From Octopus vulgaris (taxonomy: Eukaryota): a stretch of 64,000 nucleotides of DNA. The stretch covers positions 2,852,001 to 2,916,000 of the forward strand of contig OX597838.1 of assembly GCA_951406725.2 (NCBI GenBank), given 5' to 3'. Below, one piece after another: positions 26,871-39,428 of the stretch. Position 1 is the stretch's first letter, and the number at the start of each line of letters is the position of its first letter. The position numbers are program-made.

Positions 26871-28217
26871 TATATAGATAAATTGTAAGAAGCAAAGAGA
26901 GAAGAAAGGCGAAAGGTGCATGCTGTAAAGACTGCGTGTTTCGGACTTACCTGAGCATATTTTGACGATGTCGGGTCGTTAAGAAAACTCCATATTTTTG
27001 CCCTGTACCGTGTCCAGCAGGAGAGACGTCTTTCATTCATCAGACCGTTTTGGGGTAATGACGTCTTCCGGAAAGACTCTAGCTTCTCCAGAGACTTACT
27101 TTGGGTATTCCAAGTATTATATTGGGTCCAACAGCAGCGTTCAATATCGTGTTCTTCAATTCCCCAGAATTCAAACTCTGTCTTAATGGACGGTCCACAC
27201 ATACACATTGGTACATGCAGTTCGCCCGTTCTCAAGTAATTCAAGATGATCCGGAAGGCCTCAGAATCGCGATCAAAGAAATATTCGCGTCGTTCTGGTC
27301 TATAGTATTTTTCCATTTCTTCGGTGTTGGCCAGTTTCATGGTTGGCAATCGGAAAAGGGTGGCACGACGCGTCTCGAAGATCTTTCCACCAACGTTTAA
27401 TACCACGGTGTCATCGTAAATGTGTGAGCCATGGCGATGTTGTGAGTGGCTCCCCGGTGTTGTGGGAGTGACGCTGTAGTAAGGTTGTCGGTGCAGCAAC
27501 GAGTTAGTGGCTGCTGCGGCGGCGTGTGCAGCTGCGGCAGCGGCGGTGGCGGCAACCGTCGAATTGATGCCGGTGTTGGTGGCACGGTAACCGCCCAGAC
27601 CGAGGCGCGAACCGCCACTGCGACGTCGATGATCCTGTGTCACAACGCCGCCACTTGTCACGAAAGGGTTGCCCGTACCACTTCCGTACGTAAACCCGAA
27701 ACCTCCGTCGGTGGCCGGTAGATATTCAGTGGAACCGGTGAGCAGTTCGTCTCGAACCGAACGGAAACTTTCCGTGATATCGCTGTCTGCTTCTGGTGTG
27801 AGCACATTGCAGGAGGCCGGAGTAGGATTTTGGTGTGTGGACAGGCTGTAACAACTTCCATCTGCTAATTCAGACATGTTGGTGATGGTAGAGGCAGCTA
27901 TGCCGCTGTACGACGTGTTTCGCCTCTCATACGATTCGCTGGCCGTAAACCAGGAGATACTGTTTGCCAGATCATATTCGTGGCTCGGTGGTGTCTGCGG
28001 CGAAGAAGACAATAGCGGTTGCTGTTGTTCTCTCTCCTCTTCCATATCATCTTCTTCGTCATCGTCGTAATCAGTTCTCTCCTTTCCTCCTCCTCCTCTT
28101 CCTCTATCTTCGTCTTCTCTCTCCCCTTTATCTTTTCTTTTTTGTCTTCCTTTCTCTTCTCTCTCGTCGCTGCCGCCATCGTTGTTTCTCTTCTCTTTTT
28201 CCCTTTCCACATGAAAC

Positions 28218-28252
<35 letters not shown>

Positions 28253-28340
28253 TTGTTGTTGTTGTTGCTGTTGTTGTTGTTGTTCATGATGCGAGTAGTA
28301 ATGCTGTTGGTTGTGGTGATGAGGATGAGAATGAGGATGC

Positions 28341-28373
<33 letters not shown>

Positions 28374-28639
28374 TTGTTGTTGTTATTATTACTATTAAGA
28401 TGGCGGTAGCTAGGAAATATTATAGGTTGGAGTTGAACAAGTCGATCATTCAGTAAATTATCCGGATTGAATGAGTTTTGAACCTGGGTCGCCTCTGACG
28501 ATTTCGGATGAGGCTGAGGCTGTTGTTGTTGTTGTTGTTGTTGCTGTTGTTGCTGTTGCTGTTGCGTTTGTTGATGGTGAGTACCAGAAAGTGGATTACT
28601 GGTAAAGTTAATGTTTTGCGTTTGTTTTGATAGCTGCGG

Positions 28640-28709
<70 letters not shown>

Positions 28710-30149
28710 GTTTGTGGTTGTGATTGTTGTTGTTGTTGTTGCCTGTTGAGGTGGTTGTTGCTGCTATGCTTGCTGTGTGTCTGAGAACGAAGATGCGAGG
28801 GACTCTGTACAAAGCTAAAGTTAGAAATTTGGTAAGGATGTTGCCGACAAGGTGAAAACGATGAAGATGAGGATGATGATGACACTAATGAAATGGATGC
28901 TGATGAAGGTGATAACGTTGCTGACGTTGTCGCTGTGGCGTCTCTTATTGCTGCGGTCGATGTGGTGGTCGTTGTCGTTGTGATCGTCTCTGTCGGGGTC
29001 ACTGTCGATGCTATTGAGGAGATCGTTATGGCCGCTGCCGTTGCTGCAGCGATGGTTGCCGTCGCCGACCTGAGCTGCAAGTGTTGTTGTGGTTGGTGTT
29101 GCTGTGGCGGGGGTAGTGGCGGTGGTGGGGGTTGTCGGGATGGGGCTGTCTGTTGTGCTTGCTGTTGTTGTTGTTGTTGTTGTTGTTGTTGGCTTGGCGA
29201 ATGAGGATAGCTGTAACCAAGCTGATGTTGGTTCTGGTAGTTTTGTTGTTGTTGTTGTTGTAGTTGTTGTAGCTGTTTTTGTTGCTCTTTTTGTTGGGTG
29301 TAATTTGAGGTTTGTTGTTGTTGTTTTTGTTGTTGTTGTTGTTGCTGCTGCTGTGATGGGGATTGTTTAGGTGGTTGTTGTTGAGGTTGTTTTTGCGGTT
29401 GTGGCTGAGGTTGTGTTTGTAAGAGTTGCAATTGAAATTGTTGTTTTTGTTGCTGCAGTTGTTGTTGTCTTGACGGTGCCGGTGGTTGTTGTTGTTGCTG
29501 TTGTTGTTGTTGTGATAATGCATTTGGTTGTGTTTGTGATTGTGGTGGTTGTGGTGGTGGTGGTGTTGATGCTGCTGCTGCTGCTGCTGTTGCCGCCGGC
29601 GACGTTTCCGTCAACTGAGGGTTCTGGACCCGTTGACGTTGCGCCTCAAACTGAGCATGAAAGCTGCTCGGCTGCAATTGCAAGCGCAGCTGCTGCTGTT
29701 GTTTTTTCTGCTGCTGTCGCTGCAGTTGTTGGTGTGATTGCTGCTGATGATGGCGATGGTTGTGGTTGTAGTAGTGGTGGTGATGGTACACCTTTCGCGA
29801 AGGTGGTTTCAGCTGCGGGACCAGCCGTCTCAGTTCTAACGCCGGTGACTGCACCGGATTGTGGGCACCGGACGATGAAACGGCCGGTGTCTGCGAGGAC
29901 ATCTGAGTGGTGGTGGTCACCTGGTTAGCGCACCTGCTACCGTTGTTGTTGGCGGCAGTGGCGTTAGACTTGGTCACACTTGTACCCAGAACGTTCCTGG
30001 CAGCGTTGTGAGACGGTGAAATGGCGTCGTTGTGAGGGCTGCTAGCGCTGCTGCTTGTGCTTGTGTTACTACTACTGCTGCTGTTATTCTTAATCGCAGA
30101 AGCAGTTGTGAGATTGTTGGATCGTCTGTCAATGTTTTTCAGCTGCAGC

Positions 30150-30180
<31 letters not shown>

Positions 30181-30389
30181 GCTGTTGTTGTTGTTGTTGT
30201 TGCTGTTGCTGCTGCTGTTGTTGTTGCTGTTGTGGTGGTTGCGGTTGTTGTTGCTGTTGTTGTGGTGGTGTACGACGATGCTGGTTGTTAAGTAAGTCAA
30301 GGTGTTGGCGTTGTTGCTGTAGTTGTTGTTGGGATTGCGATTTTAATTGGATCGGCGTCGTTTGGGTCTGACTTAAAGGTGGCCTTTGC

Positions 30390-36735: not shown

Positions 36736-36802
<67 letters not shown>

Positions 36803-37400
36803 GGTGGTGGTAGTGGTAGTTGTACCAAAAGTCCTTACACGGACTTGAGAGCGTAATGAGCGAATCGCTTTCTTCTTCTTGTCATGGCGTCGAATTTTCT
36901 TGGTTTTCGCGGTTGCGTTGGGGTGACGGTGGGGATGCTATTGGTGTCGCTGTCGTCGGTGGTGGTGGAGGTCCAGGCGGCGGAGATGGTGGTGGCGGTG
37001 TTAAGCTGATAAAACTGGCTGACATTACAGAAAAGAAAACGGAGACAAATTGTTGCGTTTCTAAGTAGTAGTAGTAGTAGTAGTAGTAGTTGTTGTTGTA
37101 GTAGTAGTAGTAGCTGTTACTAACAGTATTAAGCGCTGTTATTGTGACTGAGTTCTTAATTTAGGTTTGGTATAAAGAGATAAAGGAACTTAAGTCTTGC
37201 GTTGTTGTTGTTGTAGTTATAGCTGCTATCGTTTTTATTGTTGTTGTTGTTGTTGTTGTTCCCCGCCGATGCCGTTGCACTGTGAGTAACAGTTATTCTA
37301 TTATTTCATCTCTTATTGTCTCCGCTTCTTGCGACTGTATTTATATCATAGCAGCATCAACAGCAACAGTGGCAGCAGCAGCAGCAGCGGTAGCAGCAGT

Positions 37401-37434
<34 letters not shown>

Positions 37435-37865
37435 GCAGTAGTACTACTAGTAGTAGTAGTCAAATGGCGGTACGCTACTGTTTTTGCTAAAAAGAAAGTG
37501 TTTCTAGCAGTTAACAACTTTGTTCTTGTCGTCGTTGCTAATTACATCCTGCTTGTTGTTATCGTTGTTGTTGTTGTTGCGATTGGTTACGCTGGTGTTG
37601 CGAGAACTAGACCTGTTGCGAAGTCACTTTCCATGCAATATTAATTCCTGCTTTTTGCTGTTGTAATTCTTATTATATTCGCAACGCCCGCCGTTTGTAG
37701 TCGTTGTTTTTGTTGCGAACGAAACCAGAGCATTTATGTAATTCTTGCGGAACTGCTGGTGTTTTTGCTGCTGCTGCTGCTGCTGCTGCTGTTGCTGTTG
37801 CTGTGGTTGTTTCAACTACTGCTGCTGCTGCTGAGGGTGAAGATGATGATGATCTTACAGTTTCT

Positions 37866-37906
<41 letters not shown>

Positions 37907-38273
37907 AAGTAGTTGTCAACTTCCGGCGACAGAATATTCAACAGTTTATCGTTCCATTAAATGTTGTTGCTGCTGTTGTTGTTGTCCTCTTCGGTTGCTG
38001 TAGGCGGCGCTAGTGACAGAGGTGAGAGTGGTGGCGTGGTTGTTGCAGCAGTAGTCACTGCGGATATTGTTGTTGTTGTTGTTGTTGTTGCTACTACTCA
38101 CGTTGCTTTTGTTATTGTTGTTGTTATTACAGTTCAATATTGCTAGCATTTGTTGTTGTTGTTATTGCTGCTGTTGTTCTTCCGCTTCCTGGTGCACGAG
38201 GTCTTTCTTTATCTGGTTTTTCAACAGGTACGACCTTCACCCCACAACAGCAGCAGCAGCAGCAGCAGTAGCT

Positions 38274-38341
<68 letters not shown>

Positions 38342-39428
38342 TGTTGTTGTTGTTGTTAGTCGTTAGTTGGACTTTTAGGAATCAGCGAGTACAAACATCA
38401 TGGCGGAAACAGACGATACATTTTCGTTTGTTTAAGTTTCCTGAATGGGGTGGCGCTGCTTATAATATTATTATTGTTGTTGTTGTTGTCGTTATTGTTC
38501 TATATTTTAGCAAACACTACACTGTTATTTATTTATTTATTCATTATTTGATTATACCACTGTTTTGTTTTTTTAATTTTCTTCTTTATTTTTTTTTGTT
38601 AGCGAAAACCTTTGACGCTTATATTGTTGACTTTCTTTCTTTCTTTCAATCTGAATAATGTTGTTGTTATTGTTATTGTCCAGGGGTTTGTTATAATCCT
38701 TTTGTTATGAAAGGAGAGTTGTTTTACGTAATATATTCCGTCCTTCCTCGAATAATTGGTTTTGTTGTTCTTGTGGCAACTACCACCGTTTTTTTACCTT
38801 CCTTTTTCTTTATTTTGTTGTAGGTAGGTTTAACTGGTGATATTGTTGTTGTTGCAGTGGTGGTGGTTGTGGTGGTGGACGTTGAGCGGAGTGGTGAGAT
38901 TGGTAAAGAGCCGACGGTCGTTGCGTGGTTGTTCGGCAGTTGAAACAATATGGCGTCCAAAGTGTAACCGTGCAAAGAGCGGTCGGTGATGCCGGGTCGA
39001 TTAGCTTTTCTGTGCCGGGTCGATAGATTCCTGTTGAAATATGTACAAGAGAAATGTGAATTAGAGCAGAATGGAAACTGTGGTTAAAGTAGGCGTTTGG
39101 TGGGAGGAAAACGAGAAGGGGGGGGGAGACAGGAAGAGAGGGGAACAGAGAGGAGGGATAAGGGAGGGGGAAGATGAGGGGTGGTTAGGTGAGTATATGA
39201 GGAAGAGAGGTGTTAGGAGGGGAATGTGTGAGTGAGTGAGTGTACGTGTGTCTAAGTGTGTGTATGTGTATGATTATGTGAGCGAGTGTATGTGTGTGTC
39301 AATTAGTAAAAAAGTGTGTTTGTTTCTGATTGATTGTGTATGTGTGTTAGAGAGAAAGAGAGAGTGCGTGAGCATGTGTATGAGTGAGTGATTGTGTGTG
39401 TGTGTGTGTGTTTGTGTGTTTGTGTGTG

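What the first reader, a model, noticed from the sequence alone, without database searches (positions are those of the whole stretch)
26951..39030. A ~12-kb triplet-only exon-like block carrying two in-frame giant ORFs ahead of a Kv3-like channel
Seen: between a canonical acceptor (39031) and the Kv donor (26950) there is no SINE, no LINE and no di- or tetranucleotide microsatellite array, although both flanks are saturated with them. Almost all simple repeats in the block are triplets. It holds two huge minus-strand ORFs in the same frame (36664-31264 = 5400 nt), separated by an 804-nt stop-containing spacer. Inference: frame-preserving repeat content over this length points to translation-linked selection. 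The options are a giant exon with an 8-11-kb leader containing a 1,502-codon uORF, a bicistronic message, or a spliced fusion giving a channel with an enormous disordered N-terminus. I know of no Kv3 architecture like any of these.
Basis: partly seen in the sequence, partly recalled or inferred. Interest (0 to 1): 0.85.

Follow-up and report, generated by a model that had tools for sequence, protein, structure and literature searches.

The report
Giant repeat-rich reading frames before Kv3-like channel
Two 1,500-codon reading frames made largely of three-base repeats sit just upstream of, and one runs straight into, the first coding exon of a Shaw/Kv3-type potassium channel gene, and both stay free of stop codons far beyond chance, so the channel probably carries an unusually long disordered front end.

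Summary
On the minus strand, 31267-26951 (1,439 codons) and 36685-32072 (1,538 codons; 1,502 from the only in-frame ATG, 36577) are open in one shared frame, 804 nt apart. That frame has 0 stops; the other two have 31/67 and 74/49. A random-phase null gives P of 1e-6 to 1e-15, and the next longest ORF in the window is 351 codons.

The first ORF runs without a break into a T1 (BTB_2) domain that best matches Kv3.1 and Aplysia Shaw, and ends at a CAG|GTAAGT donor. The block has 35 perfect tri- and 2 hexanucleotide arrays and no di- or tetranucleotide arrays (about 32 expected), and no copy of the flanks' interspersed repeats.

Two cautions:
- The 2.3 kb upstream of ORF2 is also triplet-only but closed in all frames, so triplet content alone does not show translation.
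- ORF2's 3' half is kept open but reads as a Leu/Pro/Gln/His-rich out-of-phase version of Thr-type arrays.

ORF1 stays open for 455 codons upstream of its first ATG. My best reading is therefore one coding region, with ORF2 spliced to ORF1, but I found no strong in-frame splice pair. No cephalopod genome, transcript or protein data could be searched, so the exon structure is unresolved.

The parts
26949..26950 (-). GT of the 5' splice site (CAG|GTAAGT); the last exon base is 26951
   Evidence: Sequence read. Heuristic donor score 12.7 against a 99th percentile of 7.4 for all minus-strand GT sites.
26951..27133 (-). T1-S1 linker up to the exon end, including the W..IW..DP.SS.YA stretch
   Evidence: Aligned to Kv3.1 residues 164-189 (second stretch).
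27134..27406 (-). T1 tetramerisation domain (Pfam BTB_2) with the His and Cys zinc-site residues
   Evidence: PF02214, E 4.2e-24, residues 1288-1378 of the 1439-aa translation. Best solved relatives are Kv3.1 7phh (9.3e-28) and Aplysia Shaw T1 3kvt (3.5e-26).
26951..31267 (-). ORF1: 1,439 open codons. The 1,287 codons before T1 are Gln/Ser/Thr/Pro/Asn/Ala-rich (Gln 23.9%, longest run 46 Q).
   Evidence: Stops in f0/f1/f2 are 0/31/67. Outside TRF arrays, 0 of 866 codons are stops, against 22 and 47. Variation between neighbouring codons favours position 3: 99/99/148.
29900..29902 (-). First in-frame ATG of ORF1, in a weak context, 455 codons below the upstream stop and 832 codons before T1
28043..28045 (-). 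In-frame ATG in a strong context (G at -3, G at +4), 213 codons before T1. This is the start of a conventional-size channel.
31268..32071 (-). 804-nt spacer, closed in all frames. It holds the block's only non-triplet minisatellites (26 nt x 7.2 at 31526-31710, 50 nt x 2.3 at 31754-31869) and is the candidate intron or intergenic gap.
   Evidence: No terminal inverted repeats or target-site duplication were found.
32072..36577 (-). ORF2 from its only in-frame ATG (strong context): 1,502 codons ending at TAA 32071-32069. No Pfam family, no solved-structure relative (K/R-rich part searched) and no Atlas hit.
   Evidence: Stops are 0/74/49. Outside TRF arrays, 0 of 1044 codons are stops, against 64 and 40. 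Random-phase log10 P is -9.0 to -14.7. Null searches are.
34829..35728 (-). Non-repetitive Lys/Arg-rich part of ORF2 (300 codons). This is the clearest coding-like piece.
   Evidence: All six 150-nt segments are open only in f0. Window counts are 0 stops in f0 against 19 and 24. The single-sequence AlphaFold model is helical but low confidence, pLDDT 55.
32520..34400 (-). Leu/Pro/Gln/His-rich part of ORF2. Its codons follow the pattern C-(T/A/C)-A, which is ACN (Thr-type) arrays read out of phase.
   Evidence: Position 1 is C in 59% of codons and position 3 is A in 58%. Leu is 28% of the 3' half. Variation peaks at f0 position 2: 80/115/78 over 34828-32429. Stops are 0 against 13-42 expected.
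36686..39030 (-). Upstream triplet-only stretch that is not an ORF. It serves as an internal neutral control and may be 5' UTR, promoter or decayed coding sequence.
   Evidence: Stops are 43/27/31 against expected 40-45/30-38/46-50. The longest minus-strand ORF overlapping it is 124 codons. All 7 TRF rows have period 3 or 6.
39031..39230 (-).
   Evidence: Sequence read. Heuristic score 4.3. Use is unverified.

Best explanation
The block is the 5' coding region of a Shaw/Kv3-type voltage-gated K+ channel gene that has been inflated by in-frame trinucleotide-repeat growth.

Shown:
- ORF1 (31267-26951) is one exon that encodes the T1 domain, preceded by up to 1,287 residues of Gln/Ser/Thr/Asn/Pro/Ala-rich, presumably disordered, cytoplasmic sequence.
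- Both ORF1 and ORF2 are kept free of stop codons by selection.

Inferred:
- ORF1 is open and protein-like for 455 codons above its first ATG. ORF2 begins with its only in-frame ATG in a strong context and seems constrained to stay open rather than to keep particular residues. I therefore take ORF2 to be the upstream part of the same coding sequence.
- The join would be made by removing an intron that contains the 804-nt minisatellite spacer.
- A ribosome starting at 36577 must then read through to reach T1 and the channel core. That requirement would explain selection against stops with little selection on residue identity.
- The product would be a Kv3-like subunit with a cytoplasmic N-terminus of up to about 2,800 residues. 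Shorter isoforms starting at 29902 or 28045 remain possible.
For: - Stops per frame are 0/31/67 for ORF1 and 0/74/49 for ORF2.
- Outside TRF arrays, 0 of 866 and 0 of 1044 f0 codons are stops, against 22/47 and 64/40 in the other frames.
- The random-phase null gives log10 P of -6.3 to -9.4 (ORF1 before T1), -9.0 to -14.7 (ORF2), -3.1 to -4.3 (ORF1 head above the first ATG) and -3.9 to -5.7 (ORF2 3' half).
- Position-specific expectation of f0 stops is 2.6-42 per segment against 0 observed. The adjacent triplet-rich control 36686-39028 matches expectation in every frame.
- The next longest ORF in the window is 351 codons.
- ORF1 shows a third-position excess of neighbour-codon variation, 99/99/148 (chi-square 13.9, my arithmetic).
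- CAR arrays are read as Gln in 150 of 183 four-codon windows. None of the 29 one-step non-synonymous variants in Gln-rich context is a stop.
- T1 matches Pfam BTB_2 at 4.2e-24 and Kv3.1 at 9.3e-28, in frame and contiguous with ORF1.
- ORF2's single in-frame ATG lies at codon 37 of 1538, with G at -3 and G at +4.
- The two ORFs share a strand and a frame.
Against: - No strong canonical donor/acceptor pair joins ORF2 to ORF1 in frame. The best donor (32356, AAG|GTAAAA) with the best acceptor (31292) is out of frame and stops after 16 codons. The in-frame candidates use weak acceptors at 31087, 30993 and 30879 (heuristic matrix recalled from memory).
- A shared frame has a 1-in-3 chance of occurring anyway.
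- ORF2 shows no third-position excess: 150/184/153.
- ORF2's 3' half reads as 28% Leu with Pro/Gln/His, which is odd for a soluble cytoplasmic tail. It looks like Thr-type ACN arrays out of phase, and frame 2 there has only 11 stops.
- An upstream out-of-frame ATG lies 20 nt before 36577.
- AATAAA occurs twice in the spacer, which is compatible with a separate upstream transcript.
- There is no transcript, ribosome or orthologue evidence of any kind.
- No homologue was found for either low-complexity region.
Confidence: 0.45

Rival explanations
1. There are two translation units. ORF2 is a separate upstream low-complexity protein: either its own gene ending at TAA 32071 with a poly(A) site in the spacer, or the first cistron or a very long uORF of the same mRNA. 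The channel starts inside ORF1, at ATG 29902 or 28045, or at a near-cognate codon near 31200.
For: - ORF2 has its own strong-context ATG and its own stop.
- The spacer is closed in all frames and holds AATAAA twice, at 31469 and 31465.
- The best-scoring splice pair across the spacer is out of frame.
- ATG 28045 has a strong context and would give an ordinary 213-residue N-terminus.
- In-frame CTG codons lie at 31219-31102.
Against: - ORF1 stays open and protein-like for 455 codons above its first ATG, at P of about 1e-3 to 1e-4. This model explains that only through non-AUG initiation.
- ORF2's 3' half shows selection for openness but not for residue identity. That is hard to explain for a free-standing protein.
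- A promoter would have to fit inside 0.8 kb of minisatellite-rich spacer.
Confidence: 0.3
2. Only the last 213-832 codons before T1 are translated. The rest of ORF1 and all of ORF2 are untranslated leader or promoter-proximal DNA. Their frames are open because recent in-phase triplet expansion of stop-free A+C-rich seeds has not yet decayed.
For: - The minus strand of the block is T-poor (T is 14-22%).
- ACN and CAR arrays are stop-free in all three phases.
- The triplet-only stretch 36686-39030 is clearly not an ORF.
- ORF2 has no homologue, no third-position excess and an implausible Leu-rich reading.
- A (GAT)n-type array outside the block gives a 299-codon ORF by itself.
Against: - About 70% of each ORF lies outside TRF arrays, and there f0 has 0 stops against 22-64 in the other frames.
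- The same kind of sequence without constraint (36686-39030) has 3.5-5.5% stops in every frame, and the longest minus-strand ORF overlapping it is 124 codons.
- The non-repetitive Lys/Arg-rich 300 codons are open only in f0.
- The arrays are degenerate (61-93% matches), so substitutions have accumulated without producing one f0 stop.
Confidence: 0.17
3. The picture is distorted by assembly error or by a decaying locus. Indel errors in repeat arrays, or a recent nonsense or insertion event, may have split one ancestral continuous ORF. ORF2's TAA is followed by 33 more open codons, and the spacer's minisatellites could be a recent insertion.
For: - After the TAA at 32071, frame 0 runs on for 33 codons before the next stop (read).
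- The only non-triplet minisatellites of the block sit in the spacer.
- Lys/Glu/Arg-rich sequence flanks the spacer on both sides.
Against: - Fourteen further f0 stops lie in the spacer.
- No terminal repeats or target-site duplication were found.
- No other copy of the spacer exists in the window.
- The window has no N.
Confidence: 0.08

Closest known systems
Kv3 / Shaw voltage-gated K+ channels (human Kv3.1, PDB 7PHH; Aplysia Shaw T1, PDB 3KVT)
   Same: - The T1 domain has the zinc-site His and Cys-Cys aligned to Kv3.1. The zinc ligands H77 and C104/C105 are named in passages of PMC9287412.
- The pre-S1 W..IW..DP.SS.YA stretch is present.
- The exon ends just before S1. That this matches the vertebrate KCNC exon 1 / exon 2 boundary is my recollection and was not checked.
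- Passages of preprint 10.1101/2025.09.21.677649 say Kv3 genes were duplicated in lophotrochozoans.
   Different: - In the solved Kv3.1 chains, T1 begins within about 10-40 residues of the chain start. Here at least 213, and up to 1,287 (ORF1) or about 2,800 (with ORF2), low-complexity residues precede it.
- The channel core is outside the window.
- The margin over Kv4 is modest: 100 against 83 bits.
Coding trinucleotide-repeat (polyGln/Ser/Thr/Asn) disordered regions, such as the Gln-rich N-terminus of Drosophila Shab (recalled; one search did not confirm it)
   Same: - Mixed CAA/CAG Gln runs: 151 CAA and 36 CAG in Gln-rich context.
- Repeat content that preserves the frame.
- A third-position excess in ORF1.
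   Different: - The scale is far larger: 4.3 and 4.5 kb.
- ORF2 reads the same motif class in all three phases (Thr, Leu/Pro/Gln, His/Tyr/Asn) with no sign of residue-level constraint.
Giant single exons that encode low-complexity protein, such as mucin-type Ser/Thr-rich exons (recalled)
   Same: Multi-kilobase open exons built from degenerate in-frame repeats, here including Thr runs of up to 26.
   Different: This block is attached to an ion-channel T1 domain on the cytoplasmic side. It has no signal peptide evidence and no repeat unit longer than a few codons.
Long uORF-bearing leaders and bicistronic animal mRNAs
   Same: An upstream AUG-initiated ORF on the same strand ahead of the main coding region.
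   Different: A 1,502-codon uORF kept open by selection would have no precedent that I know of (recalled). Whether the two ORFs share an mRNA is unknown.

Membership tests
Kv3 / Shaw subfamily of voltage-gated K+ channels | Cytoplasmic T1 (BTB_2) tetramerisation domain upstream of S1 | tested here: met
   PF02214, E 4.2e-24, covering the full profile 1-94 of 94.
Kv3 / Shaw subfamily of voltage-gated K+ channels | Inter-subunit zinc site of non-Shaker T1 domains (H-x5-C-x20-CC; motif recalled from Bixby et al. 1999) | tested here: met
   His, Cys and Cys-Cys align with those of Kv3.1 in the alignment, with spacing 5 and 20 as read from it. The Kv3.1 ligands H77 and C104/C105 are named in PMC9287412 passages.
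Kv3 / Shaw subfamily of voltage-gated K+ channels | Closer to Kv3 than to the Kv1, Kv2 or Kv4 subfamilies | tested here: met
   Among solved chains: Kv3.1 100.4 bits, Aplysia Shaw T1 95.3, Kv4.3 83.0, Kv2.1 71.7, Kv1.1 50.3. The margin is modest and no phylogeny was made.
Kv3 / Shaw subfamily of voltage-gated K+ channels | Six-helix core with an S4 voltage sensor and a GYG pore | tested here: inconclusive
   A motif scan of all six frames found no pore or convincing S4 exon in the window. The downstream exons must lie beyond position 1.
Translated low-complexity (trinucleotide-repeat) coding exon | Reading frame kept open beyond what composition and repeat phase allow | tested here: met
   with the internal control 36686-39030 behaving neutrally.
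Translated low-complexity (trinucleotide-repeat) coding exon | Variation concentrated at the third codon position of the open frame | tested here: inconclusive
   ORF1 meets it: 99/99/148, p about 0.001. ORF2 does not: 150/184/153, p about 0.11. In 34828-32429 the excess falls at position 2: 80/115/78 (chi-squares are my arithmetic).
Translated low-complexity (trinucleotide-repeat) coding exon | Transcript, ribosome or peptide evidence, and a frame conserved in orthologues | not testable with these tools
uORF or bicistronic leader | ORF2 and the channel ORF lie on one mature mRNA with the spacer retained | not testable with these tools
   This needs cDNA. Sequence shows only that the spacer is closed in all frames.

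The most novel reading that the evidence does not exclude
A voltage-gated K+ channel subunit carries a cytoplasmic N-terminus of roughly 2,700-2,800 residues, about five times the size of the channel core. It is encoded by two giant trinucleotide-repeat-built exons. Selection keeps them open for read-through while the residues themselves drift, even between reading phases of the same repeat. Repeat-driven expansion of a channel's disordered tail on this scale has not been described for any Kv family, as far as my searches and my recollection go.
Probability: 0.35. Interest if true: 0.75.

Novelty: new variant of a known kind. Interest (0 to 1): 0.55.

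Why it matters
If the frames are translated, this is an extreme case of trinucleotide-repeat growth inside a neuronal ion-channel gene. A Kv3-type subunit would carry a disordered tail of over a thousand residues, possibly several thousand, next to its tetramerisation domain. 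That tail could affect assembly, clustering, trafficking or phase behaviour.

The locus is also a clean natural test of 'selection for an open frame without selection for sequence'. The same Thr-type repeats are read in three phases inside one frame that stays open.

For annotation, the locus warns in two directions. Triplet-only repeat content does not prove coding, as the upstream 2.3 kb shows. Equally, repeat masking could wrongly cut away real coding sequence.

Tried and rejected
- Homology. Pfam on both whole ORFs found only BTB_2, plus a sub-threshold Tom22 hit. Pfam at E up to 10 on the Lys/Arg-rich part, the pre-T1 part and the ORF1 head found nothing meaningful.
- Solved structures. 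A search with the Lys/Arg-rich part gave 0 hits at E up to 10.
- ESM Atlas. Searches with the Lys/Arg-rich part and the ORF1 head gave no usable hit.
- Structure prediction. The single-sequence AlphaFold2 model of the Lys/Arg-rich 257 residues had pLDDT 55 and pTM 0.19, with helices only. That is too poor for a fold search, so none was run.
- Rfam on the whole window gave 0 hits.
- Codon-usage log-likelihood, trained on the 365 certain codons, was uninformative.
- Poly(A) hexamer counts were uninformative.
- ATG depletion in ORF2 (9 observed against 37 expected) is matched by a similar depletion of the stop trinucleotides, so it is not specific evidence for a leader.
- A search for terminal inverted repeats or a target-site duplication around the spacer found none.
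- Pfam on seven higher-complexity ORFs in the flanks found nothing.
- Seven literature searches found nothing on this locus or on giant Kv N-termini.
- Rejected: a transposon ORF (no domain hit) and a plus-strand gene (44-234 stops per plus-strand frame within the two ORFs).
No complex prediction was run.
- The organism itself is unverified.
- Supplementary tables of the Kv-evolution preprint, which may list mollusc Kv3 models, could not be seen.

Full report
**What is there**

On the minus strand the block holds two stop-to-stop open frames of 1,513 codons (31267..26726) and 1,538 codons (36685..32072). They share one frame, since 5,418 nt separate their first bases.

They are 804 nt apart, counting the TAA at 32071-32069 and the TGA at 31270-31268. 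That spacer carries 15, 17 and 16 stops in its three frames.

ORF2 has a single in-frame ATG, at 36577, with G at -3 and G at +4.

ORF1 ends as an exon at CAG|GTAAGT, last base 26951. This is by far the best donor-like site on the strand by a heuristic matrix: 12.7 against a 99th percentile of 7.4 for 3,812 GT sites. The matrix values were recalled from memory, so all splice scores here are heuristic.

**The channel part**

Pfam finds a full-length BTB_2 (T1) domain at residues 1288-1378 of the ORF1 translation, window 27406-27134, at E 4.2e-24.

Scores against solved structures are as follows:

| Solved chain | E-value | Bits |
|---|---|---|
| Kv3.1 (7phh) | 9.3e-28 | 100.4 |
| Aplysia Shaw T1 (3kvt) | 3.5e-26 | 95.3 |
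| Kv4.3 | | 83.0 |
| Kv2.1 | | 71.7 |
| Kv1.1 | | 50.3 |

The His and Cys residues of the T1 zinc site align with those of Kv3.1. The Kv3.1 ligands are named in passages of PMC9287412. A second aligned stretch covers the pre-S1 segment up to the exon end.

No pore or S4 exon lies in the window, so 'Kv3-like' rests on T1 alone. Passages of preprint 10.1101/2025.09.21.677649 state that Kv3 genes were duplicated in lophotrochozoans.

**The repeat landscape**

- Perfect microsatellites in the block: 35 tri and 2 hexa, with no di or tetra. The flanks hold 93 di and 44 tetra arrays in 51.9 kb, so about 32 were expected in the block.
- TRF rows with a period divisible by 3: 45 of 50 in the block, against 46 of 172 in the flanks.
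- The five exceptions: the 26-nt and 50-nt minisatellites in the spacer, two 23-nt rows in ORF2's purine-rich tail, and a 10-nt row.
- Self-BLAST shows several interspersed families in both flanks. One has five copies of about 150-230 nt and another has three copies of about 450-500 nt. None has a copy in the block.

**Are the frames open beyond chance?**

They are, by several tests that allow for the odd composition.

1. Stops per frame (f0/f1/f2) are 0/31/67 in ORF1 and 0/74/49 in ORF2.
2. Only about 30% of each ORF lies in TRF arrays. Outside them, f0 has 0 stops in 866 (ORF1 before T1) and 1,044 (ORF2) codons, against 22/47 and 64/40 in the other frames.
3. A conservative random-phase null multiplies, over 60-300-nt segments, the fraction of frames that are open in each segment. 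It gives log10 P of -4.5 to -9.4 for ORF1 before T1 and -5.4 to -14.7 for ORF2. The values of 1e-6 to 1e-15 quoted elsewhere in this report come from the 60-150-nt segment sizes. For the sub-parts it gives -2.6 to -7.8 (ORF2 5' half), -2.9 to -5.7 (ORF2 3' half) and -1.9 to -4.3 (the 455 ORF1 codons above its first ATG).
4. Position-specific expectations predict 2.6-42 f0 stops per sub-part, against 0 observed.
5. The adjacent stretch 36686-39030 has the same composition and is equally triplet-only. It has 43/27/31 stops against 40-45/30-38/46-50 expected, and the longest minus-strand ORF overlapping it is 124 codons.
6. The next longest ORF anywhere in the window is 351 codons.

The upstream 2.3 kb shows that triplet-only content occurs here without an open frame. 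The case for translation therefore rests on stop depletion, not on repeat period. Why that stretch also lacks di- and tetranucleotide arrays is unexplained; about 6 were expected. It also argues against one exon running from 39030, because sixteen ATGs, counting the one at 36577, lie between 39030 and 36577.

**The two ORFs differ in character**

ORF1 before T1 reads like a typical disordered Gln/Ser/Thr/Pro/Asn/Ala-rich protein.
- Gln is 23.9% and runs reach 46 residues.
- Neighbouring codons that differ at one base do so most often at position 3: 99/99/148, chi-square 13.9 by my arithmetic.
- CAR arrays are in the Gln phase in 150 of 183 four-codon windows.
- None of 29 one-step replacement variants in Gln-rich context is a stop.

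ORF2's first 683 codons read as Thr/Ala/Ser runs plus a non-repetitive Lys/Arg-rich 300-codon stretch. That stretch is open only in f0.

ORF2's 3' half is 28% Leu, with Pro, Gln and His.
- Its codons follow C-(T/A/C)-A.
- Variation peaks at f0 position 2: 80/115/78.
- This is what Thr-type ACN arrays look like when read one base out of phase.
- Frame 2 there has 11 stops, about what composition predicts. Frame 0 has none where 13-42 are predicted.

So frame 0 is the frame being kept open, but residue identity seems barely constrained.

**How it most likely works**

ORF1 has no in-frame ATG for its first 455 codons. The in-frame ATGs are at 29902 (weak context), 28045 (strong context, 213 residues before T1) and 27877. 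That head is nevertheless significantly open and protein-like.

Something upstream must therefore feed ribosomes into it. ORF2 lies on the same strand and in the same frame, starts with its only ATG, and is selected for read-through rather than for sequence. That makes it the obvious candidate.

I therefore favour a spliced fusion that removes the minisatellite spacer. It would give up to about 2,800 residues ahead of T1. My confidence is about 0.45 for the fusion and about 0.8 for the narrower claim that ORF1's extension is translated.

The weak point is splicing. The best donor in ORF2 (32356, AAG|GTAAAA, score 7.0) joined to the best acceptor near the spacer (31292) is out of frame and stops after 16 codons. 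The in-frame combinations use weak acceptors: 32356 to 30993 or 30879, and 34289, 32696 or 32333 to 31087. I did not build or search any joined model; each ORF was searched on its own.

**Rivals**

- Two translation units: a separate upstream gene, or a bicistronic or uORF arrangement, with the channel starting at 29902, 28045 or a near-cognate codon. Confidence 0.30.
- An untranslated, recently expanded leader. Confidence 0.17.
- Assembly error or a recent disruption of one ancestral ORF. ORF2's TAA is followed by 33 more open codons (read), but 14 further stops follow and no insertion signature was found. Confidence 0.08.

**What could not be checked**

- No eukaryotic genome, transcript or protein collection was available, so there is no orthologue or expression evidence.
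- The organism is unverified.
- No homologue of the low-complexity parts was found in Pfam, in the solved structures (K/R-rich part of ORF2 only) or in the ESM Atlas.
- Seven literature searches found nothing on this locus or on giant Kv N-termini. For those papers I saw only listings and abstracts. The exceptions are passages of PMC9287412 and of the preprint named above.
- The Gln-rich N-terminus of Drosophila Shab, the KCNC exon boundary and the H-x5-C-x20-CC motif are recalled, not tested.

**Verdict**

The feature is real and statistically robust. It is a Shaw/Kv3-type first coding exon preceded by, and probably joined to, kilobases of repeat-built open frame. It is a new variant of a known kind, namely a coding trinucleotide-repeat expansion in a channel N-terminus. 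Its exon structure remains open. Interest 0.55.

Noticed in passing
window 39946-40845 (minus); array 40281-40818: A 538-nt degenerate (CAT)n/(ATG)n array lies outside the block. On the minus strand it gives a 299-codon Asp-rich ORF and a 184-codon Met-rich ORF. It shows how long an ORF a triplet array yields by itself. Pfam found nothing.
   Followed up: partly
It could be an acceptor tract or a promoter-type C/T element.
   Followed up: no
window 9854-9991, 22052-22220, 23006-23162, 52848-53078, 59133-59363: Five copies of an interspersed element of about 150-230 nt (73-88% identity) occur in both orientations, in the flanks only. It is SINE-like by size. Rfam found no tRNA-related family.
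   Followed up: partly
window 22224-22728, 42370-42821, 44907-45419 (also 42266-42970 versus 44803-45559): A dispersed repeat of about 450-750 nt has three copies at 83-85% identity, next to long (ATT)n arrays.
   Followed up: no
window 59531-59852: A 36/73/109-nt minisatellite has 8.8 copies of the 36-nt unit at 93% matches.
   Followed up: no
window 31526-31710 and 31754-31869: A 26-nt minisatellite (7.2 copies) and a 50-nt repeat (2.3 copies) are the only long non-triplet tandem repeats in the block. Both lie in the spacer between the two ORFs.
   Followed up: yes
window 24000-40000: There is strong strand asymmetry across and slightly beyond the block. Over 26-40 kb the plus strand has GC skew +0.12 to +0.55 and AT skew -0.13 to -0.50, apart from 26-28 kb where the AT skew is +0.10. 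The coding strand is therefore mostly A+C-rich and T-poor.
   Followed up: partly
window 32072-36685 (minus): ATG trinucleotides are scarce in ORF2 in any frame: 9 observed against 37 expected from dinucleotides. Only 3 ATGs lie between 34452 and 31014. The stop trinucleotides are depleted to a similar degree, so the meaning is unclear.
   Followed up: partly
window 36686-39030: This stretch is triplet-only but closed in all frames, with stop counts as composition predicts. It may be decayed coding sequence or UTR.
   Followed up: partly
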